This document shows, in pieces, positions 9,282 to 54,857 of a stretch of DNA of 64,000 bases (positions are counted from its first letter, which is position 1; every line of letters starts with the position of its first letter). This DNA is from Trypanosoma brucei (taxonomy: Eukaryota): the NCBI GenBank assembly GCA_000002445.1, contig CM000208.1:2592001-2656000 (forward strand). Direction: 5' to 3'. The notes below the pieces were generated by a model. That model worked only from the letters and a program-made list of their open reading frames with translations. It was not told the origin of the DNA and searched no databases. A program made the position numbers and the translations under genes.

Positions 9282-9381
<100 letters not shown>

Positions 9382-11637: not shown

Positions 11638-11740
11638 CTTCAACACGGCTAAATCCGTAATATCACATGAGGTTGTTTAGCAACCGTTGTGTACCATCAC
11701 GTAAAGTGGTGTGCTGTGATTGGCGAGAGGGCGTGGCGGT

Positions 11741-11813
11741 GCTCCAGTGGCCTAATGGATATGGCTTTGGACTTCTAATCCAAAGGTTGCGGGTTCGAGT
11801 CCCGTCTGGAGTA
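11741..11813 (+). tRNA. tRNA-Arg (anticodon TCT)
   Basis: gctccag acceptor paired with ctggagt, D loop aatggata, anticodon arm ttgga-ctTCTaa-tccaa, T arm gcggg-ttcgagt-cccgt. Followed by cgttttc. Confidence 0.85.
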
Positions 11814-11862
11814 CGTTTTCGTGTCCAAAATTATTTCATATTTGTTCGTTTCTAGTTGTTTG

Positions 11863-11934
11863 CCGGAGAGCAGCCTTCCTAGCTCAGTGGTAGAGCGCAC
11901 GGCTTTTAACCGTGTGGTCGTGGGTTCGATCCCC
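11863..11934 (+). tRNA. tRNA-Lys (anticodon TTT)
   Basis: gccttcc/ggaaggc acceptor, gctc-agtggta-gagc D arm, cacgg-ctTTTaa-ccgtg anticodon arm, gtggg-ttcgatc-cccac T arm. Followed by cttttc. Confidence 0.88.
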
Positions 11935-12029
11935 ACGGAAGGCGCTTTTCTACACTGCCGCTTAAGCTAATTTCTTTGCTGGGTACGACATGTAAGCGTT
12001 AGAGGCTTGCTTGGAGGAGGGTTGGCGGT

Positions 12030-12102
12030 GCCCCCGTAGCCCAATGGATAAGGCGTTCGCTTCCTAAGCGAAAGATTGCGGGTTCGAGTCCCGCCGGAGG
12101 TA
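12030..12102 (+). tRNA. tRNA-Arg (anticodon CCT)
   Basis: Acceptor gcccccg/cggaggt with one mismatch, D loop aatggata, perfect 5-bp anticodon stem ttcgc/gcgaa with loop ttCCTaa, T arm gcggg-ttcgagt-cccgc. Followed by gttttcc. Confidence 0.75.
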
Positions 12103-18490: not shown

Positions 18491-18624
18491 ATGAATCAGT
18501 TTCAGTAAAAGAAATGAAACAGGCGGGCAGGAAGGGAAAGGAACGTGAGGTGGAGTCGGTTTTCGAATGCCGTACCACGTTTTTCCATCCCCCATGCCTC
18601 GTCTCCTCACATTCATATGTGACA
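18491..18624. repeat. 134-bp intergenic element, downstream copy of a direct repeat that brackets the HSP83 unit.
   Basis: tgaatcagtttcagtaaaagaaatgaaacaggcgggcaggaagggaaaggaacgtgaggtggagtcgg...cattcatatgtgacac is about 97% identical to 21250..21383. Confidence 0.9.
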
Positions 18625-18642
18625 CAGGACATCTGCAATGAT

Positions 18643-18700
18643 ATGAAGATTAATAATAATAATAATAATAACAATAATAATAATAATAACAATAGCGGTG
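18643..18700. repeat. (AAT)n / (AAC) trinucleotide microsatellite in the HSP83 3' flank.
   Basis: aataataataataataacaataataat... seen directly. Confidence 0.9.
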
Positions 18701-18998
18701 ATGATAATTGTAAATATACACACACACACACATATATATATATATTTACTCATACCTCTCCGTGTAAAAAACAATTAATAATCACTGTTAGAAACGACAG
18801 TAGGAAAACGAGAAAACAAAACAAAAACAAAACACCCTAACTTTCCGCTTTCTCACCCTCACATACTTTCTCAAATGGAAAGGACAGAGGAATCCGTCTG
18901 CGCGTGAGGGAGAGAAAAAAAAAAGAGAGGGGGAGAGTGAAAACACGAAACGAAAAACGTCAGATCATATAGGTGAATGTGTATCACACGGCTGCCCA

Positions 18999-21113: not shown

Positions 21114-21249
21114 CTTGGCCGTTTATATGTTATCTCTCTGTATGTGCGGGTGTCGTATAACAAGTGCTTATTTTTATCTACACTATACCTGGTTATTCAA
21201 CGAAATTTCACCGCAGTTAGTGACAGAAACGCGAAGAATAGGGCATTTG

Positions 21250-21383
21250 ATGAATCAGTTTCAGTAAAAGAAATGAAACAGGCGGGCAGGAAGGGAAAGG
21301 AACGTGAGGTGGAGTCGGTCTTCGAATGCCGTACCACGTTTTTCCATCCTCCATGCCTCGTCTCCTCACATTCATATGTGACA
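21250..21383. repeat. 134-bp intergenic element, upstream copy of the direct repeat bracketing HSP83. The spacing to the other copy is about 2.76 kb.
   Basis: Near-identical to 18491..18624, with three substitutions. Confidence 0.9.
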
Positions 21384-22016
21384 CCGAACAATTTTTACTT
21401 TTTTTGTTCCTTTTTTTTTTTAAGGTACACTTGTATAAACGGTTTATTATTTTTTTTATGTTAAGTTTCTTTTACGTTTATTTTTGTTGTAGTTCTAATT
21501 AAGTGTGAAGTGTGGAAGGAAGTGTCGTGAGTTTTTTTTTTACTTCGTATCGTTGTTCCTTTTTTTTCCCCCCTGTTGTGGTGTTTTGTTTCATAATCTT
21601 GTTCCTTTAAGGAGAAAGGAAGATGAGGAGGATATCAACGGTACTCATTGTGTACATTTGTTGTTTCTTTTGTATTTGTAATACCAACAATTTTCTTTCG
21701 TTATTTTTCCTTTTTTTTTCTCGTTGTTCATTACCTGCTTTTTTTGTATTTCGTTGTCGAGTTATATATATGTATGTTTTGTGTTAACGTGTAAAATACA
21801 TAAATGGTTGTGTACACGCACACTAGCATTGATATATTAACCGAATAAAGTGTACAATAAACGAGATGGAAGATACTAAAGAAGGGGGGGGGGAGAAATG
21901 ACAGGATTTCTGCTCAATTGCGACAAACGAATAGCGTGGTAGCATTGCTAATTGCTCTCCTGCAGATCGTTTGTGCTTACGATACAAGTAAATTACACTA
22001 AAAATAAGAACCTTTG

Positions 22017-36995: not shown

Positions 36996-37586
36996 TCAAC
37001 CAGTGTTACCCGAGTACGTATTCCTGGAAAAGTCATCGTCGCGACTCCTCTCAGAGCGATACCAGTAATGGTCCTTTTGTTGCTGTTGGTCCCGGGACAG
37101 TATGGACCAGTTCCGTTCACTGTTTCGGATATTCCAGTGCGGTTCACGAACATAAAGTTGCCCACTTGTAACCTTCATTGTTGCATTACTGTACTTAGTT
37201 GCCTTTTCTTTTTCCATGTCAATAATGCGGCGGAGCTCGTTCCGCTTGGCCTCATCTTGCGTTGTACTAAGTAGAAACTCTAGCTTGCTGATGTGGTCCA
37301 ATGATCCCGCCCTTTGCGCATGGCAGTGGTCATCAATCACTTGGCTACCTTCAACAGAAGAGTCCGTGTACTGTTGTAGTTCGTACTCAAGATGGTTGCT
37401 AACGTTAGGGGAAGGAATGCGGTTTTTGTGTGTCACATTCACCTCGTAAAGAACGGTGGCTGCAGCCGAGGCAAGAAATATGCCCCAAGTACGATAGGGG
37501 TGTTGTTGCACCCACCGCCTCGTGCGGTAAAGCCAGGAAGATATTTCCTTCCCAAGAAATGGAATGGGCACCACCTTCTCACGCAT
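36996..37586 (-). CDS. Hypothetical small membrane protein, 196 aa, with one predicted N-terminal transmembrane helix and a charged C-terminal region.
   Basis: The hydrophobic stretch WGIFLASAAATVLY comes after a basic patch. The C-terminal part is rich in E/K/R. Confidence 0.4.
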   Translation of the reverse strand: MREKVVPIPFLGKEISSWLYRTRRWVQQHPYRTWGIFLASAAATVLYEVNVTHKNRIPSPNVSNHLEYELQQYTDSSVEGSQVIDDHCHAQRAGSLDHISKLEFLLSTTQDEAKRNELRRIIDMEKEKATKYSNATMKVTSGQLYVREPHWNIRNSERNWSILSRDQQQQKDHYWYRSERSRDDDFSRNTYSGNTG

Positions 37587-37901: not shown

Positions 37902-39353
37902 CTATTCGCTTGCATCGCATTTTTCCTGTATTTTCCTCAGCAGGGAGAAAGTCACGTTTTCCCCCAACACTAGATGTCTTTCCGCAGTCGTCAGAAAATC
38001 ATACGAGGGGCGTAAACGCCGGAGTTCTGACAGGAGAATGTCACTGAATGGGCCATCTTGGAACGGTCCTGTTTCCGAGTCGGGCGAGCTGCGCAAACAG
38101 CTCTTCAACTTAGCAGCTTGACCGAGACGGAGGAGAAATCCTGAGTAAGTGGCGCAACAACGGCCCCTTATGGTGGGCAACAGTACTTCATAACGCCTAA
38201 GTTCACTCTCTAGGAAACGTGCTGGAAGCCAAAGAAAACGTACGCTGCACAACAAAGACTCTATGGCACCTTCTTTACATGTACAGTTTGAGTCTGGTAC
38301 TGACTCAGGTTTGTCCACCCTTGTTGAAGTGTGCGAAACAGAACCTGTGTGTCTCGATGCCGATGCGAAGCGAACGCAATCCCCCGTGCGATCCGTGAAG
38401 TGTAGCTCACATGCTGCACAAGCAATTTTGTAGGGCATGATTTCATTGGGAAACCCTGTATTCTCCAGCACCTTTCCAAGAACGGAGTACGGAAGATGAG
38501 CCAGTGCATCAACGGAAGTGGTTGTACCTTCAGTACGCAAGACACTGAGTTTCCTTTCCGTATGCTTGGGAGTCTCAATTCCAATAACGCTTTTATTCAA
38601 CCGCTCCACTAACAACGACGCGTAACGGTCTAGGAGGTTGTCGCTAGTCGTCCCAAGAGCCGACGCCAAGAGTTCCTCGCCAAACGAGTTCGGCAGCGTC
38701 TCCCTGCACCTCCAGCAGGCAGGCGGAGGTAAGTTGTAGAAGGTTGTAAGAAGGTCCACAACGTCCAATAACGAGCCGTCAGCCGACTCCAACGACGCAT
38801 TTGGCACACAGCAACCACAGTTGATTTGTGCTCCTTTGGAAGACGCTGCGCCCTCCACGCATTCTCCTCCCTCTTCTTCCCCTGTAAAAGTAGATTGGCA
38901 CGATCCTCCCTGCTGTGGTCCTACACCAGAAGGCACCCTAAAACGTGGCGACAAATCTGACATCGGTTTCACCTCCGATGTTTGGCAGCAACAACAACGA
39001 ACCGAGGGAAACAGGATGAAAGGAAGGGGCTTGGACGCACTTCTGTTACAACATAAAGTCTTTGTTGGTGTAAAAGCACCGTTCTCTTCCCCCAACCTCG
39101 GTCGATCGCCAACATCAACACGGAAAGAATCTAACTTTTTGCGCAGCGACGCCATTTCTCGCTTCAGCTCAATAATATCACTCACATTGACTTCCGCCGC
39201 TCGCCATTCCCGGGGCCGCACCCCCTCATGCCCCGTAGAAAAATCTAAGCTATCGTAAGACGGGGGCGGATCCAGCTGTATCGGAAAGTGGCGTCCATCC
39301 GATGGGGTTTCCAAGGGGAAAACAATATCGTATGGAGGCGGCGGAGAGCCCAT
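37902..39353 (-). CDS. Hypothetical protein, 483 aa, with two N-terminal PPxY motifs.
   Basis: MGSPPPPYDIV...LDPPPSYDSL near the N-terminus. The remainder is Cys-containing with no recognised fold. Confidence 0.45.
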   Translation of the reverse strand: MGSPPPPYDIVFPLETPSDGRHFPIQLDPPPSYDSLDFSTGHEGVRPREWRAAEVNVSDIIELKREMASLRKKLDSFRVDVGDRPRLGEENGAFTPTKTLCCNRSASKPLPFILFPSVRCCCCQTSEVKPMSDLSPRFRVPSGVGPQQGGSCQSTFTGEEEGGECVEGAASSKGAQINCGCCVPNASLESADGSLLDVVDLLTTFYNLPPPACWRCRETLPNSFGEELLASALGTTSDNLLDRYASLLVERLNKSVIGIETPKHTERKLSVLRTEGTTTSVDALAHLPYSVLGKVLENTGFPNEIMPYKIACAACELHFTDRTGDCVRFASASRHTGSVSHTSTRVDKPESVPDSNCTCKEGAIESLLCSVRFLWLPARFLESELRRYEVLLPTIRGRCCATYSGFLLRLGQAAKLKSCLRSSPDSETGPFQDGPFSDILLSELRRLRPSYDFLTTAERHLVLGENVTFSLLRKIQEKCDASE

Positions 39354-39856
39354 TAAACAAAAAAAAACCTACGGGCGCACCTTCCAGCAAATTAAGCAGC
39401 CAACGCAACCGATTACAAACAGCGGCTAGGCCAAAGCCTGAAAACAGTACCTTGCTCTTATATGCATTGCACAGAACAAATAACAAAAAACAAAACAAAA
39501 AGATGATTAAAGTAAGGGGGAAAACAGCGTCATCAAGCAATGATAAAAATAAAAATAATAATAATATAACAAAACAAATTTACGCCCCACAAGAAACAAC
39601 GTTATAACTAACAACATATACATCAAATATATATACATGCAAAGAATAAAAGTGATAATCTAGAAGTTATCATTTCTCAAAACAACAGAAAAATAAAAAT
39701 AATAAAACACACGAACAATAAAAAACGCAACAGTAATGAAAATGTAACTTCCGACAATACCATAAAAAAAGGAAAGACGAAAAACATCAACAAAGAAAAA
39801 TTCATCTACAAAAGTAAATATCAAAGCACTGCAGAAAACATAAAAAGGGAAATACA

Positions 39857-42094
39857 TTAATCAAATTCTTCAACATCTAAACCTACTAATGCTTCACCAC
39901 CCTCAGGTGCCACTGCCTCAGGTTGTGCTTCTGCAGGAACTTGCTGTGGCTCTTCAAGCTCTTCAACTGCTTCCACTGCTATGTCACCCTCAGGTGCCGC
40001 TGCCTCAGGTTGTGCTTCTGCAGGAACTTGCTGTGGCTCTTCAAGCTCTTCAACTGCTTCCACTGCTATGTCACCCTCAGGTGCCGCTGCCTCAGGTTGT
40101 GCTTCTGCAGGAACTTGCTGTGGTTCTTCAAGCTCTTCAACTGCTTCCACTGCTATGTCACCCTCAGGTGCCGCTGCCTCAGGTTGTGCTTCTGCAGGAA
40201 CTTGCTGTGGCTCTTCAAGCTCTTCAACTGCTTCCACTGCTATGTCACCCTCAGGTGCCGCTGCCTCAGGTTGTGCTTCTGCAGGAACTTGCTGTGGTTC
40301 TTCAAGCTCTTCAAGTGCTTCCACTGCTATGTCACCCTCAGGTGCCGCTGCCTCAGGTTGTGCTTCTGCAGGAACTTGCTGTGGCTCTTCAAGCTCTTCA
40401 AGTGCTTCCACTGCTATGTCACCCTCAGGTGCCGCTGCCTCAGGTTGTGCTTCTGCAGGAACTTGCTGTGGCTCTTCAAGCTCTTCAACTGCTTCCACTG
40501 CTATGTCACCCTCAGGTGCCGCTGCCTCAGGTTGTGCTTCTGCAGGAACTTGCTGTGGCTCTTCAAGCTCTTCAACTGCTTCCACTGCTATGTCACCCTC
40601 AGGTGCCGCTGCCCCAGGTTGTGCTTCTGCAGGAACTTGCTGTGGCTCTTCAAGCTCTTCAACTGCTTCCACTGCTATGTCACCCTCAGGTGCCGCTGCC
40701 TCAGGTTGTGCTTCTGCAGGAACTTGCTGTGGCTCTTCAAGCTCTTCAACTGCTTCCACTGCTATGTCACCCTCAGGTGCCGCTGCCTCAGGTTGTGCTT
40801 CTGCAGGAACTTGCTGTGGCTCTTCAAGCTCTTCAACTGCTTCCACTGCTATGTCACCCTCAGGTGCCGCTGCCTCAGGTTGTGCTTCTGCAGGAACTTG
40901 CTGTGGTTCTTCAAGCTCTTCAAGTGCTTCCACTGCTATGTCACCCTCAGGTGCCGCTGCCCCAGGTTGTGCTTCTGCAGGAACTTGCTGTGGCTCTTCA
41001 AGCTCTTCAACTGCTTCCACTGCTATGTCACCCTCAGGTGCCGCTGCCTCAGGTTGTGCTTCTGCAGGAACTTGCTGTGGCTCTTCAAGCTCTTCAACTG
41101 CTTCCACTGCTATGTCACCCTCAGGTGCCGCTGCCTCAGGTTGTGCTTCTGCAGGAACTTGCTGTGGCTCTTCAAGCTCTTCAACTGCTTCCACTGCTAT
41201 GTCACCCTCAGGTGCCGCTGCCTCAGGTTGTGCTTCTGCAGGAACTTGCTGTGGTTCTTCAAGCTCTTCAAGTGCTTCCACTGCTATGTCACCCTCAGGT
41301 GCCGCTGCCTCAGGTTGTGCTTCTGCAGGAACTTGCTGTGGCTCTTCAAGCTCTTCAAGTCCTTCCACTGCTATGTCACCCTCAGGTTGTGCCTCAGGTT
41401 GTGCTTCTGCAGGAACTTGCTGTGGCTCTTCAAGCTCTTCAACTGCTTCCACTGCTATGTCACCCTCAGGTGCCGCTGCCTCAGGTTGTGCTTCTGCAGG
41501 AACTTGCTGTGGCTCTTCAAGCTCTTCAACTGCTTCCACTGCTATGTCACCCTCAGGTGCCGCTGCCTCAGGTTGTGCTTCTGCAGGAACTTGCTGTGGT
41601 TCTTCAAGCTCTTCAAGTGCTTCCACTGCTATGTCACCCTCAGGTGCCGCTGCCTCAGGTTGTGCCTCAGGTTGTGCTTCTGCAGGAACTTGCTGTGGCT
41701 CTTCAAGCTCTTCAAGTGCTTCCACTGCTATGTCACCCTCAGGTGCCGCTGCCTCAGGTTGTGCTTCTGCAGGAACTTGCTGTGGCTCTTCAAGCTCTTC
41801 AAGTGCTTCCACTGCTATGTCACCCTCAGGTGCCGCTGCCTCAGGTTGTGCCTCAGGTTGTGCTTCTGCAGGAACTTGCTGTGGTTCTTCAAGCTCTTCA
41901 AGTGCTTCCACTGCTATGTCACCCTCAGGTTGTGCCTCAGGTTGTGCTTCTGCAGGAACTTGCTGTGGCTCTTCAAGCTCTTCAAGTGCTTCCACTGCTA
42001 TGTCACCCTCAGGTGCCGCTGCCTCAGGTTGTGCCTCAGGTTGTGCTTCTGCAGGAACTTGCTGTGGCTCTTCAAGCTCTTCAACTGCTTCCAC
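39857..42094 (-). CDS. C-terminal portion of a giant acidic tandem-repeat protein. The frame is separated from the upstream portion by frameshifting lesions, and the ORF caller started it at an in-repeat GTG.
   Basis: 745 codons made up almost entirely of EGDIAVEA(L/V)EELEEPQQVPAEAQPEA(QPEA)AAP units. It terminates ...GGEALVGLDVEEFD* at 39857. Confidence 0.6.
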   Translation of the reverse strand: MEAVEELEEPQQVPAEAQPEAQPEAAAPEGDIAVEALEELEEPQQVPAEAQPEAQPEGDIAVEALEELEEPQQVPAEAQPEAQPEAAAPEGDIAVEALEELEEPQQVPAEAQPEAAAPEGDIAVEALEELEEPQQVPAEAQPEAQPEAAAPEGDIAVEALEELEEPQQVPAEAQPEAAAPEGDIAVEAVEELEEPQQVPAEAQPEAAAPEGDIAVEAVEELEEPQQVPAEAQPEAQPEGDIAVEGLEELEEPQQVPAEAQPEAAAPEGDIAVEALEELEEPQQVPAEAQPEAAAPEGDIAVEAVEELEEPQQVPAEAQPEAAAPEGDIAVEAVEELEEPQQVPAEAQPEAAAPEGDIAVEAVEELEEPQQVPAEAQPGAAAPEGDIAVEALEELEEPQQVPAEAQPEAAAPEGDIAVEAVEELEEPQQVPAEAQPEAAAPEGDIAVEAVEELEEPQQVPAEAQPEAAAPEGDIAVEAVEELEEPQQVPAEAQPGAAAPEGDIAVEAVEELEEPQQVPAEAQPEAAAPEGDIAVEAVEELEEPQQVPAEAQPEAAAPEGDIAVEALEELEEPQQVPAEAQPEAAAPEGDIAVEALEELEEPQQVPAEAQPEAAAPEGDIAVEAVEELEEPQQVPAEAQPEAAAPEGDIAVEAVEELEEPQQVPAEAQPEAAAPEGDIAVEAVEELEEPQQVPAEAQPEAAAPEGDIAVEAVEELEEPQQVPAEAQPEAVAPEGGEALVGLDVEEFD

Positions 42095-43610
42095 TGCTAT
42101 GTCACCCTCAGGTTGTGCCTCAGGTTGTGCAGGTGTGCTTCTGCAGGAACTTGCTGTGGTTCTTCAAGCTCTTCAAGTGCTTCCACTGCTATGTCACCCT
42201 CAGGTTCGCTGCCTCAGGTTGTGCTTCTGCAGGAACTTGCTGTGGTTCTTCAAGCTCTTCAAGTGCTTCCACTGCTATGTCACCCTCAGGTGCCGCTGCC
42301 TCAGGTTGTGCTTCTGCAGGAACTTGCTGTGGCTCTTCAAGCTCTTCAAGTGCTTCCACTGCTATGTCACCCTCAGGTGCCGCTGCCTCAGGTTGTGCCT
42401 CAGGTTGTGCTTCTGCAGGAACTTGCTGTGGCTCTTCAAGCTCTTCAAGTGCTTCCACTGCTATGTCACCCTCAGGTGCCGCTGCCTCAGGTTGTGCCTC
42501 AGGTTGTGCTTCTGCAGGAACTTGCTGTGGTTCTTCAAGCTCTTCAAGTGCTTCCACTGCTATGTCACCCTCAGGTGCCGCTGCCTCAGGTTGTGCCTCA
42601 GGTTGTGCTTCTGCAGGAACTTGCTGTGGCTCTTCAAGCTCTTCAACTGCTTCCACTGCTATGTCACCCTCAGGTTGTGCCTCAGGTTGTGCTTCTGCAG
42701 GAACTTGCTGTGGCTCTTCAAGCTCTTCAAGTGCTTCCACTGCTATGTCACCCTCAGGTGCCGCTGCCTCAGGTTGTGCCTCAGGTTGTGCTTCTGCAGG
42801 AACTTGCTGTGGTTCTTCAAGCTCTTCAAGTGCTTCCACTGCTATGTCACCCTCAGGTGCCGCTGCCTCAGGTTGTGCCTCAGGTTGTGCTTCTGCAGGA
42901 ACTTGCTGTGGCTCTTCAAGCTCTTCAACTGCTTCCACTGCTATGTCACCCTCAGGTTGTGCCTCAGGTTGTGCTTCTGCAGGAACTTGCTGTGGCTCTT
43001 CAAGCTCTTCAAGTGCTTCCACTGCTATGTCACCCTCAGGTGCCGCTGCCTCAGGTTGTGCCTCAGGTTGTGCTTCTGCAGGAACTTGCTGTGGCTCTTC
43101 AAGCTCTTCAAGTGCTTCCACTGCTATGTCACCCTCAGGTGCCGCTGCCTCAGGTTGTGCCTCAGGTTGTGCTTCTGCAGGAACTTGCTGTGGCTCTTCA
43201 AGCTCTTCAACTGCTTCCACTGCTATGTCACCCTCAGGTTGTGCCTCAGGTTGTGCTTCTGCAGGAACTTGCTGTGGCTCTTCAAGCTCTTCAAGTGCTT
43301 CCACTGCTATGTCACCCTCAGGTGCCGCTGCCTCAGGTTGTGCCTCAGGTTGTGCTTCTGCAGGAACTTGCTGTGGCTCTTCAAGCTCTTCAACTGCTTC
43401 CACTGCTATGTCACCCTCAGGTGCCGCTGCCTCAGGTTGTGCCTCAGGTTGTGCTTCTGCAGGAACTTGCTGTGGCTCTTCAAGCTCTTCAAGTGCTTCC
43501 ACTGCTATGTCACCCTCAGGTTGTGCCTCAGGTTGTGCTTCTGCAGGAACTTGCTGTGGCTCTTCAAGCTCTTCAACTGCTTCCACTGCTATGTCACCCT
43601 CAGGTGCCGC
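39890..43610. repeat. Tandem array of about 41 coding repeat units, 84, 87, 93 or 99 nt long. The length variants come from the presence or absence of ttgtgcctcagg and tgccgctgcctcagg modules.
   Basis: Seen directly. The core is ctcaggtgccgctgcctcaggttgtgcttctgcaggaacttgctgtgg(c/t)tcttcaagctcttcaa(c/g)tgcttccactgctatgtcacc. Confidence 0.95.
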
Positions 43611-46600
43611 TGCCTCAGGCTGCGCAATGTCAAGCTCCTTTTGATCTTCAGGCTCAAGTGTCTGAATCACCTCAAGCTGCGCAATGTCAAGCTCCTTTTG
43701 ATCTTCAGGCTCGAGTGTCTGAATCACCTCAGGCTGCGCAATGTCAAGCTCCTTTTGATCTTCAGGCTCAAGTGTCTGAATCACCTCAGGCTGCGCAATG
43801 TCAAGCTCCTTTTGATCTTCAGGCTCGAGTGTCTGAATGACCTCAGGCTGCGCAATGTCAAGCTCCTTTTGATCCTCAGGTTCAAGTGTCTGAATCACCT
43901 CAGGCTGCGCAATGTCAAGCTCCTTTTGATCTTCAGGCTCGGGTGTCTGAATCACCTCAGGCTGCGCAATGTCAAGCTCCTTTTGATCTTCAGGCTCGAG
44001 TGTCTGAATCACCTCAGGCTGCGCAATGTCAAGCTCCTTTTGATCTTCAGGCTCAAGTGTCTGAATCACCTCAGGCTGCGCAATGTCAAGCTCCTTTTGA
44101 TCTTCAGGCTCGGGTGTCTGAATCACCTCAGGCTGCGCAATGTCAAGCTCCTTTTGATCTTCAGGCTCGAGTGTCTGAATCACCTCAGGCTGCGCAATGT
44201 CAAGCTCCTTTTGATCTTCAGGCTCAAGTGTCTGAATCACCTCAGGCTGCGCAATTTCAAGCTCCTTTTGATCTTCAGGCTCAAGTGTCTGAATCACCTC
44301 AGGCTGCGCAATGTCAAGCTCCTTTTGATCTTCAGGCTCGAGTGTCTGAATCACCTCAGGCTGCGCAATGTCAAGCTCCTTTTGATCTTCAGGTTCAAGT
44401 GTCTGAATCACCTCAGGCTGCGCAATGTCAAGCTCCTTTTGATCTTCAGGCTCGAGTGTCTGAATCACCTCAGGCTGCGCAATGTCAAGCTCCTTTTGAT
44501 CTTCCGGCTCAAGTGTCTGAATCACCTCAGGCTGCGCAATGTCAAGCTCCTTTTGATCTTCAGGCTCAAGTGTCTGAATCACCTCAGGCTGCGCAATGTC
44601 AAGCTCCTTTTGATCTTCAGGCTCAAGTGTCTGAATCACCTCAGGCTGCGCAATGTCAAGCTCCTTTTGATCTTCAGGCTCAAGTGTCTGAATCACCTCA
44701 GGCTGCGCAATGTCAAGCTCCTTTTGATCTTCAGGCTCAAGTGTCTGAATCACCTCAGGCTGCGCAATGTCAAGCTCCTTTTGATCTTCAGGCTCAAGTG
44801 TCTGAATCACCTCAAGCTGCGCAATGTCAAGCTCCTTTTGATCTTCAGGCTCAAGTGTCTGAATCACCTCAGGCTGCGCAATGTCAAGCTCCTTTTGATC
44901 TTCAGGCTCGGGTGTCTGAATCACCTCAGGCTGCGCAATGTCAAGCTCCTTTTGATCTTCAGGCTCAAGTGTCTGAATCACCTCAGGCTGCGCAATGTCA
45001 AGCTCCTTTTGATCTTCAGGCTCGAGTGTCTGAATGACCTCAGGCTGCGCAATGTCAAGCTCCTTTTGATCCTCAGGTTCAAGTGTCTGAATCACCTCAG
45101 GCTGCGCAATGTCAAGCTCCTTTTGATCTTCAGGCTCGGGTGTCTGAATCACCTCAGGCTGCGCAATGTCAAGCTCCTTTTGATCTTCAGGCTCAAGTGT
45201 CTGAATCACCTCAGGCTGCGCAATGTCAAGCTCCTTTTGATCTTCAGGCTCAAGTGTCTGAATCACCTCAGGCTGCGCAATTTCAAGCTCCTTTTGATCT
45301 TCAGGCTCAAGTGTCTGAATCACCTCAGGCTGCGCAATGTCAAGCTCCTTTTGATCTTCAGGCTCAAGTGTCTGAATCACCTCAGGCTGCGCAATGTCAA
45401 GCTCCTTTTGATCTTCAGGCTCAAGTGTCTGAATCACCTCAGGCTGCGCAATGTCAAGCTCCTTTTGATCTTCAGGCTCGAGTGTCTGAATCACCTCAGG
45501 CTGCGCAATGTCAAGCTCCTTTTGATCTTCAGGCTCAAGTGTCTGAATCACCTCAGGCTGCGCAATGTCAAGCTCCTTTTGATCTTCAGGCTCAAGTGTC
45601 TGAATCACCTCAGGCTGCGCAATGTCAAGCTCCTTTTGATCTTCAGGCTCGAGTGTCTGAATCACCTCAGGCTGCGCAATGTCAAGCTCCTTTTGATCTT
45701 CAGGTTCAAGTGTCTGAATCACCTCAGGCTGCGCAATGTCAAGCTCCTTTTGATCTTCAGGTTCAAGCTTTTTGAATGCAATTTTCTCTGTATGTTCACG
45801 CTCCTTTTTTTTGTTTTCTTGTGTGATTTCTTCTTGATGATCGTTTGTTTTTAATTTTTCTTTTTGTGGTTTATTTTCTTTTGGGAGTTGAACTTCTTGG
45901 GGATCTTGGTTTGTGGTCGAGTCCTGTTTTTTTAGTTGTGGTTGGTGCCACTGCTGCTGCTCGGCTGTTTCATGAGCGTGAGCAAAACTTTTTTTCGGGT
46001 CAAGTATTTTGGTGTTTTGAGGCAGTGATTGCCTTTTTTGATTTGCTTCTTTACATGTTTGTTTTTTACTAATTGTTTCAGTTAGTGGCGTTTGGGCACT
46101 GCTGATGCGTGCCTCCTTAGCTTTGAGGTATATCGTCCTTCTCTCCATTTCTTGAAGGATGTCACCTCTGTTGATTTGTTCATTTTTTTCCATTCGTTGG
46201 CGTAATTTGCCTTCATCTTCAACCACGCCAACTACCTTCTTTAGTTCATGAAACGCCTCTTGCAGTAGAAGGTATGACCTTCGCAGGTCTACCATGATTT
46301 CCATGTAACTGAAGTAATGCTTTGTGTCAAGTGCTATTCTTTCTTGTATATTTTTCTGATACTGCCTCTCAACAAGCCGTTGGCGCTGTTTGGCGTGCAT
46401 ATCCCTCAGAACTTGTCTGTGAGTTTCACTGCGCTGTTTGTCTTTAATATCCAACGTTTCGCGCGTTTTGGCACTTATGTGTTCATATTTTTCCTTTGAT
46501 ATTCGGTCAATAGTCTCCTGCACTTTTGGCAAGAGAGTATCGAGCATGCGGTCAATGCGGCGTAGGGTGCGGTTGCGTTCGTTTTCTTCCTTTTTCCGAA

Positions 46601-47138
46601 TCCTCGCAGAAACCTCCTTGTCTAACTCATGCTGTGTTTTGTCATGGTCGTATTTTGTTAGCACCTGCTGTAGGCGTGAAGACCGCCATAGTCTAATATT
46701 ACTGTCAATTTGCGCGATTTCCTCCTCAATTGAAGGACTGTCATTAACAATGTGTCGTTGACTAAAAAAAACAGAGTTTAACACAGGTTGCCCGGCATCA
46801 GGAAGGGACTTGCTCACCTCTGTATAAAACGTCATATCGTGCATTGCATCACTAACCAACAACCCCTTAGCCACATCATCTGCTGCTGCAGCGCCGGCGT
46901 ACACGGACGGTCCTTTCGGACGCCGGAAAGAGGAGAGGGGGAGATAATCCGGCTTTGAGGGTTTGGCAGGGATCTTCAATTGCTTGCTATCGACCTCTGT
47001 GCTGACTTGCTCCAGTAGTGGTTCTGCAACCGTCGACGTTGTTGTAGGTTGCTCCTTGGCCTGCTCCTGAGGCGATCTCCCCTCGCCTGGGGAATTATTA
47101 TACATTGCTACTGCTGTTGCTATTTTCCCCCTTTCCAC
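42189..47138 (-). CDS. N-terminal portion of the giant acidic tandem-repeat protein. It has a unique K/E/R-rich coiled-coil-like head of about 470 aa, then about 38 copies of a 19-aa repeat, then the ~29-33-aa repeat.
   Basis: 1649-aa ORF. The repeats are EPEDQKELDIAQPEVIQTL (57-nt units), switching to EGDIAVEA(L/V)EELEEPQQVPAEAQPEA... The premature end ...EAANLRVT* arises from a 1-nt deletion in a repeat unit. Confidence 0.65.
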   Translation of the reverse strand: MERGKIATAVAMYNNSPGEGRSPQEQAKEQPTTTSTVAEPLLEQVSTEVDSKQLKIPAKPSKPDYLPLSSFRRPKGPSVYAGAAAADDVAKGLLVSDAMHDMTFYTEVSKSLPDAGQPVLNSVFFSQRHIVNDSPSIEEEIAQIDSNIRLWRSSRLQQVLTKYDHDKTQHELDKEVSARIRKKEENERNRTLRRIDRMLDTLLPKVQETIDRISKEKYEHISAKTRETLDIKDKQRSETHRQVLRDMHAKQRQRLVERQYQKNIQERIALDTKHYFSYMEIMVDLRRSYLLLQEAFHELKKVVGVVEDEGKLRQRMEKNEQINRGDILQEMERRTIYLKAKEARISSAQTPLTETISKKQTCKEANQKRQSLPQNTKILDPKKSFAHAHETAEQQQWHQPQLKKQDSTTNQDPQEVQLPKENKPQKEKLKTNDHQEEITQENKKKEREHTEKIAFKKLEPEDQKELDIAQPEVIQTLEPEDQKELDIAQPEVIQTLEPEDQKELDIAQPEVIQTLEPEDQKELDIAQPEVIQTLEPEDQKELDIAQPEVIQTLEPEDQKELDIAQPEVIQTLEPEDQKELDIAQPEVIQTLEPEDQKELDIAQPEVIQTLEPEDQKELEIAQPEVIQTLEPEDQKELDIAQPEVIQTLEPEDQKELDIAQPEVIQTPEPEDQKELDIAQPEVIQTLEPEDQKELDIAQPEVIQTLEPEDQKELDIAQPEVIQTLEPEDQKELDIAQPEVIQTPEPEDQKELDIAQPEVIQTLEPEDQKELDIAQLEVIQTLEPEDQKELDIAQPEVIQTLEPEDQKELDIAQPEVIQTLEPEDQKELDIAQPEVIQTLEPEDQKELDIAQPEVIQTLEPEDQKELDIAQPEVIQTLEPEDQKELDIAQPEVIQTLEPEDQKELDIAQPEVIQTLEPEDQKELDIAQPEVIQTLEPEDQKELDIAQPEVIQTLEPEDQKELEIAQPEVIQTLEPEDQKELDIAQPEVIQTLEPEDQKELDIAQPEVIQTPEPEDQKELDIAQPEVIQTLEPEDQKELDIAQPEVIQTLEPEDQKELDIAQPEVIQTPEPEDQKELDIAQPEVIQTLEPEDQKELDIAQPEVIQTLEPEDQKELDIAQPEVIQTLEPEDQKELDIAQPEVIQTLEPEDQKELDIAQLEVIQTLEPEDQKELDIAQPEAAAPEGDIAVEAVEELEEPQQVPAEAQPEAQPEGDIAVEALEELEEPQQVPAEAQPEAQPEAAAPEGDIAVEAVEELEEPQQVPAEAQPEAQPEAAAPEGDIAVEALEELEEPQQVPAEAQPEAQPEGDIAVEAVEELEEPQQVPAEAQPEAQPEAAAPEGDIAVEALEELEEPQQVPAEAQPEAQPEAAAPEGDIAVEALEELEEPQQVPAEAQPEAQPEGDIAVEAVEELEEPQQVPAEAQPEAQPEAAAPEGDIAVEALEELEEPQQVPAEAQPEAQPEAAAPEGDIAVEALEELEEPQQVPAEAQPEAQPEGDIAVEAVEELEEPQQVPAEAQPEAQPEAAAPEGDIAVEALEELEEPQQVPAEAQPEAQPEAAAPEGDIAVEALEELEEPQQVPAEAQPEAQPEAAAPEGDIAVEALEELEEPQQVPAEAQPEAAAPEGDIAVEALEELEEPQQVPAEAQPEAANLRVT
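43610..45770. repeat. Tandem array of about 38 coding repeat units of 57 nt. Point variants include ctcaag/ctcgag/ctcggg and caatgt/caattt.
   Basis: Seen directly. Unit: ctcaggctgcgcaatgtcaagctccttttgatcttcaggctcaagtgtctgaatcac. Confidence 0.95.
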
Positions 47139-47451: not shown

Positions 47452-49665
47452 CTAGTTTTCTTCACTGTCTGTGTTGGCTGCTGGATCGTCCCCGCCTGCG
47501 TTCGCCCCCTCCAGATTGGGATGAAACTCAGGAGTGAGGGAGACAACGGGCTCATGCGGATGAATACCATGCTTGAGGATAAAAACCTCCGGGTGCTGCT
47601 GCAAATACCCCAAAATACCTCCAGAACCTCGCCGTAAAATTGCACGCCGTAGCTCGCTGCTGATAAATTTTGGCAGGTGCGAAGGAAGCAGGTTTCGGGA
47701 TCTACAAACCGCCAACCGCGCTGCTACAAGAGACACCATGAATCGGAGTTGCTCTTCTGGGTCCGTCAAGAGTCGCTTGTGGTGCTCAGACGCTTGGCCA
47801 GAAACGGGGATATGGCTGGTGATGTTTATGTTCTGCTCGCACTCGCTTGATTCGTCCCCTTCTGGCGCGACTGGGGCCATGCGTTGGACACACAATTCCG
47901 GGGGGCATTCCACCAGACGGAACAAATGTGGGTATTTCCTGATCCACGTGCGAGAGCGTGCGTCGGTTATGCGGCGTATGTTTTCCGGGAGGAGCTGTGG
48001 TAGGTGACCTGTTACAATAAGGGTACCGTCTATGGGGAGAAGATCGAACACGTAGTACGCAAGGACGTCAGGATGGCAAAAAGGGGAAGGCCCCAGTTCG
48101 TGCAGAGCTATGCAACGCAGCAACAGACGTTTCCTGTCTATGAGGCGAACTCGTTTGTGATTTGGAAGCTTTTGCAAGCTCTTCGGTACCCATTCGTTCG
48201 TCTCCTCCAGTTCCTTTTTCAGCTCTTCGCATGTTTTCTCTTGGTAGAGGGCAGGTAAGCAGCGGGCCTTATCGAGCCAGAAACGCACTCCGACGATCCG
48301 GGATGAATCAATAGGGTCGTACTCAAAGTCGAGAATAGATTGTGCTGTTTCGGCATTCCCAACTTTTCCTGCTTTGCTTTCTTCCCCACCAATAGCGAGA
48401 ACAACTGCCAGTGGCTGTGTCAACCACTTCCCAGCTATCTCATCCAGCTCGGGCAGCTTTGTAAACGCTTCCGTGTGTAGAACGCGGCACAGGCGGTAGA
48501 GGTTATAATCCTCCACCAATTTATTTTCTGGGTTTGGGATGGCACGGAGCACGATGCGGCTGTAGGCAGCGGCGGAGGTAAAACATAGAAACAATGTAGT
48601 TTTCACCCGTGTATCCGGCGAAGAGTCTGAGGGTTGCGAGGCGTCACAACATTCGGGGCGTATCGCTTCAAGGGCGACCTTTGCCGTTTCGCCATTCAAC
48701 TCTGCCCAGCGAAAGGCATGAAGTCGCTGCCCCTCACTGCAATCCACCGTTGCCCGCTCAACACCAGCCACCATCTCACCACTCCAGGAAGTTGTGTTTT
48801 CAGTTAGTTTATGTGCTGTGTATTCCGCTACAAGCATCCACAACTGTATTCCAGAATTTGGCTTGAGCCACTCCTGCAAGACTCGTTCCATGCTCTCGAT
48901 AGATCTGCTCTCATTGCTGTTGGCCCGCCCTCCCCCTTCAGCACAATGTCCGCTAAATGTTGCAGCTCCGGTTCTACTCTGTATTATGTCTTCTAAGGGA
49001 AGAAAGAGACGAAACGATGTCCCTCCGCTTACCTCACCACCTACTTCTTGGATTAATTCAACGTATAAAATTCCGTTACCACCGCAGGAGAGCCGATACC
49101 GCGACGGAAACCCTTGCAAGTGACTCTTGAGACCATTTGGAAGGCTCTCAATCACCTCATCTGGGAGGAGCTTGGCTAGCTCCGTCAGAGGAACTACGCG
49201 GTTGTGTGCCACAAAGGGGAATACGGGATCAGTCCGCTCCTCCGCATCACCACAAGGGGTTTTGGGCACTCTTGAACGGACCGCCCTGTCCGCTGGCACC
49301 CCGTGGGGGAGAGTGTGCACAGCGAGGCACGCTAAGCGAAGAGACGTGGTCCGCAGCACGTCTTTGCGATCGCCATGCCTGTCAAACACGCTAAATGCGA
49401 CTTTCCGGCGTAAAGCCACAGAGAAAGAGCCCCCGTATCGGCTTGGAAGCAACCCACAACCCCTTGGAACAGGCACCCCCACAAAACATTTCCCAGTAAC
49501 CCTCATGCAGCCTTTACCTCCTGCTAAGTTACCTAATTTTTTTTTTTTTTGCTCCTTCGGTAGGTACCGCACTGCACTGTCCTTACCTCTTTCCAATTCC
49601 ACCTTATGCACCCCAGAGGGGGTGGGGGTTCTGTTATTGAAGGCGAGGGTAAGAAGAAGATACAC
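47452..49665 (-). CDS. Hypothetical protein, 737 aa.
   Basis: Long complete ORF on the cluster strand. No motif recognised. Confidence 0.5.
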   Translation of the reverse strand: MYLLLTLAFNNRTPTPSGVHKVELERGKDSAVRYLPKEQKKKKLGNLAGGKGCMRVTGKCFVGVPVPRGCGLLPSRYGGSFSVALRRKVAFSVFDRHGDRKDVLRTTSLRLACLAVHTLPHGVPADRAVRSRVPKTPCGDAEERTDPVFPFVAHNRVVPLTELAKLLPDEVIESLPNGLKSHLQGFPSRYRLSCGGNGILYVELIQEVGGEVSGGTSFRLFLPLEDIIQSRTGAATFSGHCAEGGGRANSNESRSIESMERVLQEWLKPNSGIQLWMLVAEYTAHKLTENTTSWSGEMVAGVERATVDCSEGQRLHAFRWAELNGETAKVALEAIRPECCDASQPSDSSPDTRVKTTLFLCFTSAAAYSRIVLRAIPNPENKLVEDYNLYRLCRVLHTEAFTKLPELDEIAGKWLTQPLAVVLAIGGEESKAGKVGNAETAQSILDFEYDPIDSSRIVGVRFWLDKARCLPALYQEKTCEELKKELEETNEWVPKSLQKLPNHKRVRLIDRKRLLLRCIALHELGPSPFCHPDVLAYYVFDLLPIDGTLIVTGHLPQLLPENIRRITDARSRTWIRKYPHLFRLVECPPELCVQRMAPVAPEGDESSECEQNINITSHIPVSGQASEHHKRLLTDPEEQLRFMVSLVAARLAVCRSRNLLPSHLPKFISSELRRAILRRGSGGILGYLQQHPEVFILKHGIHPHEPVVSLTPEFHPNLEGANAGGDDPAANTDSEEN

Positions 49666-52319: not shown

Positions 52320-54857
52320 TTAGCTTCTGGCAGTGAGTCTGACAATATCAACCGGAGTGCAGACATCAATGTCGCATAATTTAGATTGCACTTCTTTCCA
52401 TTTTTTCATCTTCATTGCAGTGGTTACCTTTCCCCGCTTCGTCTTGCCAGGTACTGTTGTCCGACCTCCTTTGCATGACGTGGGAACTTCTCGCAGATAC
52501 GGTAGTAAGGCAAGAAGACCATTGTTACTGCACACGAAACAACACTCAGTATTTTTGCTGTTGGGATCCTCCACACTGCCCTCATTCACAACATCCCCAC
52601 GTTGACTGCTTCTAGAGCCACTCACCGCCCGCCTGCAATGATCAGAAATTAGAGACTTCCAGCCAGCGTGGTCCCAAACCCACGCGTAGGCAAGGCAACA
52701 ACCAAAACGCATAGAAAAAAATGGGGCTGTAGCAATGGTGCCGATGCGCGTAAGCTCCGGAATGGTGACGCACAGAGTTGCACCACTCTCTTCCTGATCC
52801 TTCGGTTTCAAAAGCAAAAGTGCACCTCCCACTTCCTGATGTTGCCGCCCCCCTCTTGCCGAAAATTTCAAAAGGACACGTTGGTGGGCATTGGAGGGCG
52901 AATGGTACAGACGTGCCACCCCCGAATTGCGCCAGACATTCCGTGCACTTTCCCTGCCGAACAACGCGTAGCACCCGGAGAGTAGTTGCAAAGTTTCTCG
53001 TTCCTCTTCGCCGATCGCCCGTGCGGAGTATGCGTAACCATTACTCCTGCATAGCCCCACGGTCCCGGCAACCTCTTCAGAATCGTCACACCATTGCCTC
53101 CACGTGGCCGCAACTGGTGACACGACACTGGAGAACAAATGCCTCGAAAGCTGGAAGTGGCAGGCGCGGTACGACCACGTGTTGCACGTCCTACTACTAC
53201 CAAGGGCGTCAGCATTACGAATGCGGCGTACAGAAACCGCAAGTACTGTCACCACACATTGGTGGATGGGAAAACTGGTACAGTCAACAATGTCCGTAAA
53301 TGGCGGAAACGATGGGAAAGTAAACACCTTGACGCCTCCTAACGCCCTTTTTGTTGGCGTCAGGGATGATGACTTAGTTGAAAGAAAAACATTTGAATTT
53401 TCAGCCTCCAAAAACTCGCTACTCTCGCTCTTCCCAGCTGTTGCAGAGTGCCATCTCATCATTGCCTTGTCTACTCGCTGCCGCACCCATGAATGGCTGG
53501 GCAGAACCGCTTTTTCACCACATTCCTGTGCGGCTGCCCCAGCACAACACCAGACCTCTAACATGGAACTCAGAAAACCCACCGCCGGGCATGGATTCCA
53601 GTGCGAAATGAGACAGAAGCTGAGGTGTCGCCGCGCTTGTGGGCCGAAATACACTGGACAAGGCGCAATCAAGTAGTATGTATCTCCTCTTCCCACTTTT
53701 CCATCGCGCACAAGCACCAGTGTCACAGCAACTACAGGGTTTGATTGTACCGTGCAAGCATCCTGTGGGAACGGGTAACCAGCGGCTTTGGCGGCGGCAG
53801 ACCACACGTAGCCGTAGTAGACACTACAGCCGTTGGTTTGCCATGTTCCGCCGGTGGGATCCGGGGTTGTTTTGCTAAGGCGAAAACTTTTAGTGTAACC
53901 CATGGCCGGCGGGTTTTCATTCGTACGCATTATTAGTAGATTCATTAGCTCCTCTGGCGAAAAACGCCTCTCCATGTTCAGCTGCTGCAGGCGCCACACG
54001 CACATGTGAGACCTTTCAGCAACGAAGCACATGGGTGGTGGGACAGCCGTTAACTTGCCCCTGTGCTGTCTCACAACTTTTGAAGTCATCTGTGAGGAAA
54101 CAAAAGTGGGCAATCTCGCGACCCAACGCTGTAATATTCGGTGTTGCTTCCTCTGACATTTAAGGGGCACGGCGATTCTCAGTGTGACGGTGCAGGAAGG
54201 CGTACCTCTACCGCTGCCTCCACCTACAATGGCCAGATCGGGTTCTGGGTTTGGACAGGGGGAGACCTTTGCCTTTTCCACACAGTAATGAAACCGCCGA
54301 CGCATGTACCAATGGGATGGTAGCCATAAAATCGAAGTTCTACCGGGGACAGCTCCTGTGAGAATGGTTCCATGATTAGGCATCGCGCAGTTGCAGAGTG
54401 GTTTCTGATACTTACCATACCGTAACGCAAAAATACGGCGCAACAACCGCCGACGAGTAGTGGGGCGACGCCTCAAAGCCACTCTTCGCCTTCTTCTCAA
54501 CAGTGAACACCATTGTGAATACGTGAATAACCGTTTCTTGGGCTTTTTAGTGCATGCACTGAGCATGATAGCTTCCCTTGTGCTTTGCCGCCGGGGATCA
54601 CGAGAAGCATGCCGCATTCTGTCGTGCATATGCCGCTTCATGTTGCACAGTGGCACGTTTGAGGACGATGGTCGGCGGTGAAGAGGAACTGCCGGGCGCT
54701 TAGGAAGGCCACAGCTGCTTCCCTGCTCTCCTGTATCATCAACGTCAGCACCTCCTCTGCTATCGACGCCATCATCACGTGGCCTTTTTCGGAAGAGTAA
54801 CGTGGAAAAAGCTGCCACTTCCTCCACTCTGTTTTTCAGCAACTCTGCAACATTCAT
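52320..54857 (-). CDS. Hypothetical protein, 845 aa.
   Basis: Long complete ORF on the cluster strand with an Arg-rich N-terminal third. No motif recognised. Confidence 0.45.
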   Translation of the reverse strand: MNVAELLKNRVEEVAAFSTLLFRKRPRDDGVDSRGGADVDDTGEQGSSCGLPKRPAVPLHRRPSSSNVPLCNMKRHMHDRMRHASRDPRRQSTREAIMLSACTKKPKKRLFTYSQWCSLLRRRRRVALRRRPTTRRRLLRRIFALRYGKYQKPLCNCAMPNHGTILTGAVPGRTSILWLPSHWYMRRRFHYCVEKAKVSPCPNPEPDLAIVGGGSGRGTPSCTVTLRIAVPLKCQRKQHRILQRWVARLPTFVSSQMTSKVVRQHRGKLTAVPPPMCFVAERSHMCVWRLQQLNMERRFSPEELMNLLIMRTNENPPAMGYTKSFRLSKTTPDPTGGTWQTNGCSVYYGYVWSAAAKAAGYPFPQDACTVQSNPVVAVTLVLVRDGKVGRGDTYYLIAPCPVYFGPQARRHLSFCLISHWNPCPAVGFLSSMLEVWCCAGAAAQECGEKAVLPSHSWVRQRVDKAMMRWHSATAGKSESSEFLEAENSNVFLSTKSSSLTPTKRALGGVKVFTFPSFPPFTDIVDCTSFPIHQCVVTVLAVSVRRIRNADALGSSRTCNTWSYRACHFQLSRHLFSSVVSPVAATWRQWCDDSEEVAGTVGLCRSNGYAYSARAIGEEERETLQLLSGCYALFGRESARNVWRNSGVARLYHSPSNAHQRVLLKFSARGGRQHQEVGGALLLLKPKDQEESGATLCVTIPELTRIGTIATAPFFSMRFGCCLAYAWVWDHAGWKSLISDHCRRAVSGSRSSQRGDVVNEGSVEDPNSKNTECCFVCSNNGLLALLPYLREVPTSCKGGRTTVPGKTKRGKVTTAMKMKKWKEVQSKLCDIDVCTPVDIVRLTARS

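What the first reader, a model, noticed from the sequence alone, without database searches (positions are those of the whole stretch)
42100..42215. Two adjacent frameshifting lesions split the giant repeat gene: an 8-nt insertion and a 1-nt deletion in consecutive repeat units
Canonical units are multiples of 3 nt. The unit at 42113..42204 is 92 nt because an extra aggtgtgc is inserted into ttgtgc|ttctgcagg. In the next unit, from 42205, the sequence reads ttcgctgcctcagg where tgccgctgcctcagg is expected, a 1-nt loss. Reading 5' to 3' on the minus strand, the 1-nt deletion drives the upstream ORF into ...EAANLRVT*, stopping at 42189. The 8-nt insertion puts the downstream 745 codons in a different nucleotide frame, although those codons are in the biologically correct repeat frame. 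As assembled, the locus cannot make one continuous ~2400-aa protein. This is either an error in consensus calling within the repeat or a genuine pseudogenising or truncating event.
Basis: seen in the sequence. Interest (0 to 1): 0.5.

Follow-up and report, generated by a model that had tools for sequence, protein, structure and literature searches.

The report
Frameshifts in trypanosome flagellar repeat gene
Two neighbouring out-of-frame repeat units split a giant flagellar repeat-antigen gene of Trypanosoma brucei into two reading frames, and this most likely reflects a sequence-assembly error inside a hard-to-assemble tandem array rather than new biology.

Summary
On the minus strand, 38 of the 40 units of the 84/87/99-nt repeat family are multiples of 3. 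The only two exceptions are consecutive: 86 nt (42281..42196) and 92 nt (42195..42104). The upstream ORF (1,638 aa from the ATG at 47105) ends at a TAG at 42189..42191. The next 745 codons stay open in another frame and contain no ATG. Adding 1 nt and removing 8 nt gives one ORF of 2,413 aa.

The window is Trypanosoma brucei brucei TREU927 chromosome 10. The gene is the Trypanosoma-specific "flagellar antigen / paraflagellar rod protein", very probably TbI17.

Both lesions sit in the only length-variable segment of the unit, and each reads as a hybrid of two unit types. The HSP83 tandem array 21 kb away appears here as one copy, whereas the literature reports ten. All three other assemblies I retrieved fail inside this gene.

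I judge a consensus or assembly artefact most likely (about 0.6). A genuine truncating allele (about 0.33) cannot be excluded without raw reads. If real, it would leave a 184-kDa protein that keeps the conserved N-terminal domain. Interest is low either way.

The parts
39857..47105 (-). Whole gene as it would read if both lesions were reverted: a 2,413-aa acidic (pI 4.05, 264 kDa) flagellar repeat antigen of T. brucei TREU927 chr10, probably TbI17.
   Evidence: Repair test. Organism from exact protein matches. Orthologues named 'flagellar antigen' or 'paraflagellar rod protein'.
42189..47105 (-). Upstream ORF as assembled: 1,638 aa and 184 kDa from the first ATG, ending ...EAANLRVT*.
46146..46961 (-). 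Conserved N-terminal domain (aa 49-320), 45-55% identical across Trypanosoma species. It is predicted to form long helices (126-205, 212-293, 298-337).
   Evidence: Alignment; AlphaFold model (pLDDT above 90 in the long helices, pTM only 0.23).
43613..45767 (-). Array of about 38 copies of a 57-nt unit (19 aa, EPEDQKELDIAQPEVIQTL), with no indels.
39898..43619 (-). Array of 41 units of 84, 87 or 99 nt (28, 29 or 33 aa, DIAVEA[VL]EELEEPQQVPAEAQPE(AQPE)(AAAPE)G). The first part follows an 84-99-99 higher-order pattern and the last part is almost all 87 nt.
42196..42281 (-). 86-nt unit (lesion 1). The coding strand reads GGCAGCGAACCTGAGG instead of GGCAGCGGCACCTGAGG. The change lies at + strand 42206..42207, with a net loss of 1 nt.
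42104..42195 (-). 92-nt unit (lesion 2). It has 8 extra nt (GCACACCT coding strand; aggtgtgc on + strand at 42131..42138) in an otherwise 84-type unit.
42189..42191 (-). Premature TAG stop, reached 5 codons after lesion 1.
39857..42163 (-). Downstream open frame. It is listed as a 745-codon ORF from the GTG at 42094. It holds 24 complete in-frame units plus the terminal unit that runs into the tail, and it has no ATG codon.
39857..39901 (-). Unique C-terminal tail GGEALVGLDVEEFD plus the stop. It is identical in T. b. gambiense DAL972 and T. b. equiperdum IVM-t1.

Best explanation
The window is the TREU927 reference sequence of Trypanosoma brucei chromosome 10. The gene is a giant acidic tandem-repeat protein of the flagellum, probably antigen I17. 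The two frameshifting units are most likely errors of consensus calling or repeat assembly in the interior of a 3.7-kb array of near-identical 84/87/99-nt units. Reads from units of different length types would have been laid over one another, and the consensus came out as a hybrid of two unit types at exactly the segment where the types differ. On this reading the real gene is one continuous ORF of roughly 2,400 aa, and its true unit number may differ from the assembly.

Shown here: the lesions, their hybrid nature, the single ORF after repair, and the poor handling of tandem arrays in this and other assemblies. Inferred: that the lesions are absent from the organism's DNA.
For: 1. Only 2 of 40 units are out of frame, and they are adjacent. 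The chance of adjacency is 5%, which suggests one local event.
2. Both lesions lie in the only length-variable segment of the unit. The 86-nt unit has an 87-type start (..GGCAGCG) and an 84-type end (AACCTGAGGGT). The 92-nt unit has a damaged third QPEA/APE block. Neither is a whole-subrepeat (12 or 15 nt) slippage product, unlike all natural length variants in the array.
3. Reverting +1 and -8 nt gives one stop-free 2,413-aa ORF.
4. The downstream 24 complete units are all in frame and run, through the terminal unit, into the same tail and stop codon found in DAL972 and IVM-t1. There is no further decay.
5. The same sequence version has the HSP83 array as a single copy, flanked by 141-nt direct repeats 2,759 nt apart. 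The literature reports 10 tandem copies, Tb927.10.10890-10980. The 2009 annotation lists Tb10.26.1080 with a 1 in the column that I read as copy number. Tandem arrays are therefore not faithfully represented here.
6. All three other assemblies I retrieved fail in this gene. DAL972 has a 100-N gap preceded by degenerate sequence. T. equiperdum OVI breaks into two contigs at the array edges. IVM-t1 has many indels and a gap, and its gene is annotated as only 340 aa.
7. The lesions lie 2.2 kb from the unique 3' flank and 1.4 kb from the 57-nt/87-nt array boundary. The array holds exact internal duplications of up to 427 nt.
Against: No raw reads could be examined, so absence of the lesions from the genome is not shown. 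TREU927 chr10 is a finished Sanger-era sequence. The longest exact internal repeat (427 nt) is shorter than a good Sanger read, so the array was not impossible to assemble correctly. A GC-to-A replacement and an 8-nt insertion are not the classic single-base homopolymer errors. Orthologues in other trypanosomes have very short or different repeat tails, so a truncated protein would probably be tolerated. Selection therefore does not argue against a real lesion. The openness of the downstream frame is inherited from the repeat unit and is weak evidence.
Confidence: 0.6

Rival explanations
1. The lesions are real in strain TREU927, possibly on one of the two haplotypes. An aberrant recombination or repair event between 84-type and 87-type units produced two out-of-register junctions. 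The allele then encodes a 1,638-aa (184-kDa) protein. That protein keeps the conserved N-terminal domain, all 19-aa repeats and 14 of the 29-33-aa units, and loses about 775 aa of further repeats plus the 14-aa tail. The downstream 2.2 kb would be untranslated 3' sequence.
For: The sequence as given reads this way. Hybrid units could also arise from out-of-register recombination between unit types. Repeat tails of orthologues vary from nearly none (T. cruzi 370 aa, T. vivax 415 aa) to hundreds of residues and are unrelated in sequence, so repeat length looks unconstrained. A 184-kDa product is still compatible with the '>180 kDa' fraction from which I17 was cloned (PMC2813431). The event would be recent, which would explain the lack of downstream decay.
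Against: Two separate non-triplet changes in adjacent units are needed, and neither is a simple slippage product. The same assembly version mishandles a nearby tandem array. The lesion k-mers are absent from the parts of the array present in three other Trypanozoon assemblies, although those arrays are incomplete.
Confidence: 0.33
2. The frameshifts are real but are bypassed or exploited. Either ribosomal frameshifting yields the full-length protein, or the downstream 745 codons are expressed as a separate product.
For: Only that the downstream frame is open and in the correct repeat frame.
Against: Two separate shifts about 70 nt apart would be required. The first would have to occur within 5 codons, before the TAG. 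No XXXYYYZ slippery heptamer exists anywhere in 42090..42290. The downstream frame has no ATG at all; the last Met of the repaired protein is residue 320. It lies inside a repeat with no distinct splice-acceptor context. Nuclear mRNAs of trypanosomes are not edited (established knowledge).
Confidence: 0.02

Closest known systems
TbI17 flagellar repeat antigen of T. brucei (Imboden et al. 1995; listed as Tb10.26.0960 in Portman & Gull 2010, PMC2813431)
   Same: It is on chromosome 10 within about 10-12 gene IDs of HSP83 (Tb10.26.1080). It is a high-molecular-weight tandem-repeat protein. Orthologues occur in T. cruzi and T. congolense but none in Leishmania. Orthologues are annotated 'flagellar antigen' or 'paraflagellar rod protein'.
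   Different: The published I17 repeat sequence could not be compared because the paper is not held. Simple counting of CDS accessions gives Tb10.26.0980 rather than .0960, so the identification is strong but indirect.
Collapsed or mis-called tandem arrays in Sanger-era trypanosomatid reference genomes (for example the HSP83 array of TREU927)
   Same: Both are long arrays of near-identical units. The same sequence version shows one HSP83 copy where 10 are reported. The same gene has gaps or contig breaks in DAL972 and OVI.
   Different: Here the array is not grossly collapsed: 41 units are present. The defect is two small indels, and these cannot be proven erroneous without reads.
Other repeat-rich cytoskeletal antigens of T. 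brucei (TbI2, Tb5.20, MARPs)
   Same: All are acidic, immunodominant tandem repeats attached to a flagellar or cytoskeletal targeting domain.
   Different: The N-terminal domain is unrelated. Pfam has no match and no PFR domain was detected. The family is restricted to Trypanosoma.

Membership tests
TbI17 flagellar antigen (Tb10.26.0960) | Located on T. brucei chromosome 10 in the Tb10.26 contig. | tested here: met
   The window equals TREU927 chr10: the 684-aa neighbour matches only EAN78490. HSP83 = Tb10.26.1080 lies 10 CDS away, and MSH2 = Tb927.10.11020 lies 6 CDS away. The exact ID was not confirmed.
TbI17 flagellar antigen (Tb10.26.0960) | High-molecular-weight (>180 kDa) tandem-repeat protein. 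| tested here: met
   Predicted 184 kDa as assembled and 264 kDa after repair. About 80% of the length is tandem repeats.
TbI17 flagellar antigen (Tb10.26.0960) | Orthologues in T. cruzi and T. congolense, none in Leishmania. | tested here: met
   The single-sequence and profile searches returned only Trypanosoma species. Sensitivity is limited by the word index.
TbI17 flagellar antigen (Tb10.26.0960) | [quoted passage not shown] | not testable with these tools
   Imboden et al. 1995 is not held, and no localisation data were reachable.
Assembly or consensus artefact | Lesion lies inside long near-identical tandem repeats, at the segment where unit types differ. | tested here: met
Assembly or consensus artefact | Independent evidence that this assembly misrepresents tandem arrays. 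| tested here: met
   There is one HSP83 copy, flanked by 141-nt direct repeats 2,759 nt apart, against 10 copies in the literature.
Assembly or consensus artefact | Lesion absent from raw reads or from independent assemblies of the same strain. | not testable with these tools
   No read data and no second TREU927 assembly were available. Other subspecies' assemblies are incomplete here.
Genuine pseudogene or truncated allele | Further degeneration (stops, indels) downstream of the first lesion. | tested here: not met
   All 24 complete downstream units are multiples of 3, the terminal unit runs in frame into the tail, there are no stops, and the tail and stop are conserved. A very recent event would still pass this test.
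Genuine pseudogene or truncated allele | Lesion shared with related strains. | tested here: inconclusive
   The lesion k-mers are absent from L001-L004, but those arrays are gapped, broken or error-ridden.
Programmed ribosomal frameshift | Slippery heptamer at the shift site, with a single shift restoring the frame. | tested here: not met
   There is no XXXYYYZ heptamer in 42090..42290, and two shifts would be needed.

The most novel reading that the evidence does not exclude
The lesions are genuine in TREU927. This widely used laboratory strain would then carry a naturally truncated I17 allele lacking about one third of the protein (775 aa of repeats plus the tail). That would be a natural experiment showing that much of the immunodominant repeat array is dispensable for flagellar function.
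Probability: 0.3. Interest if true: 0.25.

Novelty: not a real feature. Interest (0 to 1): 0.12.

Why it matters
The matter is mostly one of annotation hygiene. If the lesions are errors, the reference model of this flagellar antigen is about 775 aa too short, and its 3' 2.2 kb is treated as UTR. That would mislead C-terminal tagging, RNAi and knock-out design, transcript models and antigen design.

If the lesions are real, TREU927 makes a shortened I17. That would be a minor strain polymorphism, consistent with the rapid turnover of repeat tails in this family. Neither outcome changes understanding of trypanosome biology.

Tried and rejected
- **Homology search with the repeat region.** It gave no scored hit. 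The exact look-ups of the 1,638-aa ORF and of the DAL972 1,027-aa protein found nothing. The protein collection evidently lacks these repeat-rich proteins, so I could not see how TREU927 (presumably EAN78489) annotates the gene.
- **Fetching the TREU927 contig itself.** This failed. Only the OVI, DAL972 and IVM-t1 loci were retrievable.
- **IVM-t1 as an independent test.** Its array is useless for this because it is full of long-read indels.
- **Literature.** Imboden 1995 is not held. Searches for TbI17, Tb10.26.0960 and Tb927.10.11080 gave only the Portman & Gull review. The TrypTag supplements held as text do not list the gene.
- **Known domains and structures.** Pfam and PDB sequence searches of the N-terminal domain found nothing. 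I did not run a fold search, because the model is a set of long helices with pTM 0.23 and matches would be meaningless.
- **Frameshifting or a separate downstream product.** Rejected: no slippery site, two shifts needed, and no ATG.
- **Large plus-strand ORFs (1,251-1,957 aa).** Rejected as genes. They are the stop-free antisense of the repeat.

Full report
**Observation.** I cut the minus strand of 39800..43700 at the conserved anchor GACATAGCAGTGGAAG. This gives 40 complete units: 20 of 87 nt, 12 of 99 nt, 6 of 84 nt, one of 86 nt (42281..42196) and one of 92 nt (42195..42104). The two units that are not multiples of 3 are adjacent.

- The 86-nt unit reads ...GAGGCAGCGAACCTGAGGGT where 87-nt units read ...GAGGCAGCGGCACCTGAGGGT. 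This is a GC-to-A replacement with a net loss of 1 nt, at + strand 42206..42207.
- The 92-nt unit is an 84-type unit with 8 extra nt, aggtgtgc on the + strand at 42131..42138.
- The upstream ORF runs from the first ATG at 47105 and ends ...EAQPEAANLRVT* at 42189..42191 (1,638 aa).
- The ORF 39857..42094 (745 codons) is in the proper repeat frame. That frame is open back to a TGA at 42164..42166.
- All three minus-strand frames are therefore used in turn by the 'correct' repeat reading.
- Adding 1 nt and removing 8 nt gives one stop-free ORF of 2,413 aa, 264 kDa, pI 4.05.

**What the locus is.** All long ORFs from 14 kb to 64 kb lie on the minus strand with short spacers, as in a trypanosomatid polycistron. 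Exact protein look-ups identify the organism.

- The photolyase, MSH2, a kinase, an ABC protein and others are identical to T. brucei brucei TREU927 entries EAN78477-78491.
- The 684-aa neighbour (47452..49506) matches only TREU927 (EAN78490). It differs from T. equiperdum OVI, T. b. equiperdum IVM-t1 and T. b. gambiense DAL972.
- TREU927's shorter annotated versions of two further genes are exact substrings of the window ORFs.
- DNA identity is 99.8-99.9% to OVI and 99.1% to DAL972 and IVM-t1.

The window is therefore TREU927 chromosome 10. MSH2 is Tb927.10.11020, which places the repeat gene at about Tb927.10.11080. That ID is inferred by counting, not confirmed.

**What the gene is.** The non-repetitive N-terminus has homologues only in Trypanosoma species: T. 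congolense, T. vivax, T. cruzi, T. rangeli, T. theileri, T. melophagium and T. conorhini. These are annotated 'putative flagellar antigen' or 'paraflagellar rod protein'. A profile search again found only Trypanosoma.

Portman & Gull (PMC2813431) list the flagellar repeat antigen TbI17 as Tb10.26.0960. They report T. cruzi and T. congolense orthologues, none in Leishmania, and a location between the paraflagellar rod and the axoneme. HSP83, ten CDS away in the window, is Tb10.26.1080. I therefore identify the gene as TbI17 with good but indirect support.

The protein has four parts:

- a conserved domain (aa 49-320, 45-55% identity across species), predicted as long helices with pLDDT above 90, with no Pfam or PDB match;
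- about 38 copies of a 19-aa unit;
- 41 copies of a 28/29/33-aa unit;
- a 14-aa tail.

Orthologues carry unrelated acidic repeat tails of very different length.

**Anatomy of the lesions.** The unit types differ in length only in their last third: (QPEA)1-2 with or without AAAPE. Both lesions fall in that segment.

- The 86-nt unit has an 87-type beginning (..GGCAGCG) joined to an 84-type ending (AACCTGAGGGT). It aligns about equally well as 87 minus 1 or as 84 plus 2.
- The 92-nt unit has a damaged extra block, GCACACCTG, which is intermediate between GCACAACCTGAG and GCACCTGAG.
- Natural length variants in the array differ by whole 12-nt or 15-nt blocks. These two do not.
- The unit-type string is ABCDCBDCEDCEBF-G*-H*-CDEFBIJAKIJJLIJJLJJFIJMJ. 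The lesions sit in the irregular zone between a regular 84-99-99 pattern and the 87-only part.
- They lie 2.2 kb from the unique 3' flank and 1.4 kb from the junction with the 57-nt array.
- Exact internal duplications reach 427 nt.

**Artefact or real?** I could not reach raw reads, so this is a weighing of indirect evidence.

For an artefact:

- The lesions are adjacent (5% by chance).
- They have a hybrid-of-two-unit-types character, located exactly where a pile-up of reads from different unit types has to be gapped.
- The ORF is clean after repair.
- All 24 complete downstream units are intact, and the tail and stop codon are shared with DAL972 and IVM-t1.
- This sequence version handles tandem arrays poorly. 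The window has a single HSP83 gene flanked by 141-nt direct repeats 2,759 nt apart. T. b. brucei is reported to have ten tandem copies, Tb927.10.10890-10980 (PMC9538636). The 2009 annotation lists Tb10.26.1080 with a 1 in the column that I read as copy number.
- All three other assemblies I retrieved fail in this gene. DAL972 has a 100-N gap preceded by degenerate sequence, and its gene model is partial at 1,027 aa. OVI breaks into two contigs at the array edges. IVM-t1 has many indels and a gap, and its gene model is 340 aa.

For a real lesion:

- The sequence is from a finished Sanger-era chromosome.
- A 427-nt maximum exact repeat could in principle be assembled from good Sanger reads.
- The changes are not classic single-base errors.
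- Out-of-register recombination could also produce hybrid units.
- Repeat tails are so variable between species that a truncated protein would probably be tolerated.

The open downstream frame is weak evidence, because it is a property of the repeat unit itself. I put the artefact at about 0.6 and a genuine (possibly heterozygous) truncating allele at about 0.33.

**Consequence if real.** The product would be 1,638 aa (184 kDa). It would keep the conserved domain, all 19-aa repeats and 14 of the longer units.

- The downstream frame has no ATG; the last Met is residue 320. It would not be translated on its own.
- Frameshifting is not credible. Two shifts are needed, the first within 5 codons, and there is no slippery heptamer in 42090..42290.

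**Remarks on the proposed checks.**

- There is no K or R after residue 1156. The whole 29-33-aa repeat domain and the tail are invisible to tryptic proteomics.
- Units after the lesion are identical to units before it. The only downstream-specific peptide is the tail, which needs Glu-C or Asp-N.
- PCR primers inside the repeat would anneal to every unit. The unique 16-mer and 19-mer at the lesions or array-spanning long reads are the practical handles.

**Verdict.** The most likely cause is a consensus or assembly error in a known repeat antigen gene of a reference genome. Interest and novelty are low.

Noticed in passing
window 18491..21390 (HSP83 gene 18999..21113, minus strand): Only one HSP83/HSP90 gene is present, flanked by 141-nt direct repeats 2,759 nt apart (97% identical). 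The literature reports 10 tandem HSP83 copies at this spot in T. b. brucei (Tb927.10.10890-10980). The array seems collapsed to one unit in this sequence version.
   Followed up: partly
window 1..14300: There is no ORF of 200 aa or more on either strand in the first 14 kb. GC dips to 0.41 at 2-6 kb. There is a cluster of five tRNA genes (Asn, Ala, Arg, Lys, Arg) at 11415..12103 and a 33-nt tandem repeat at 1961..2154. This may be the end of the polycistron or a strand-switch region.
   Followed up: partly
window 39889..45854, plus strand: Three overlapping plus-strand ORFs of 1,251, 1,305 and 1,957 aa cover the repeat arrays. They exist only because the antisense of the repeat units lacks stop codons, and they are not genes.
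   Followed up: yes
window 39857..43637 (repaired protein aa 1157-2413): The whole 29-33-aa repeat domain and the C-terminal tail contain no Lys or Arg, so they give no tryptic peptides. This may explain why TbI17 was missed in PFR proteomes (PMC2645819 notes its absence).
   Followed up: partly
L001 10001..11023 (T. b. equiperdum IVM-t1) and L004 5737..8918 (T. b. gambiense DAL972): The orthologous gene is mis-modelled in both. In IVM-t1 it is a 340-aa protein that diverges from the window sequence after ...YLKAK (an apparent indel) and is followed by an indel-ridden array. In DAL972 it is a partial 1,027-aa model that ends in degenerate sequence next to a 100-N gap.
   Followed up: partly
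window 36996..37586, 37902..39353, 52320..54857 (minus strand): TREU927 annotations are shorter than the ORFs here and than the models in sister genomes (73 vs 196 aa, 417 vs 483 aa, 773 vs 845 aa), although the DNA encodes the longer forms. The start codons chosen differ between annotations.
   Followed up: no
protein database: Repeat-rich proteins seem to be missing from, or filtered out of, the protein collection. Examples are the DAL972 1,027-aa model, and T. congolense P0002 in the profile search. Negative homology results for such proteins are therefore not informative.
   Followed up: no
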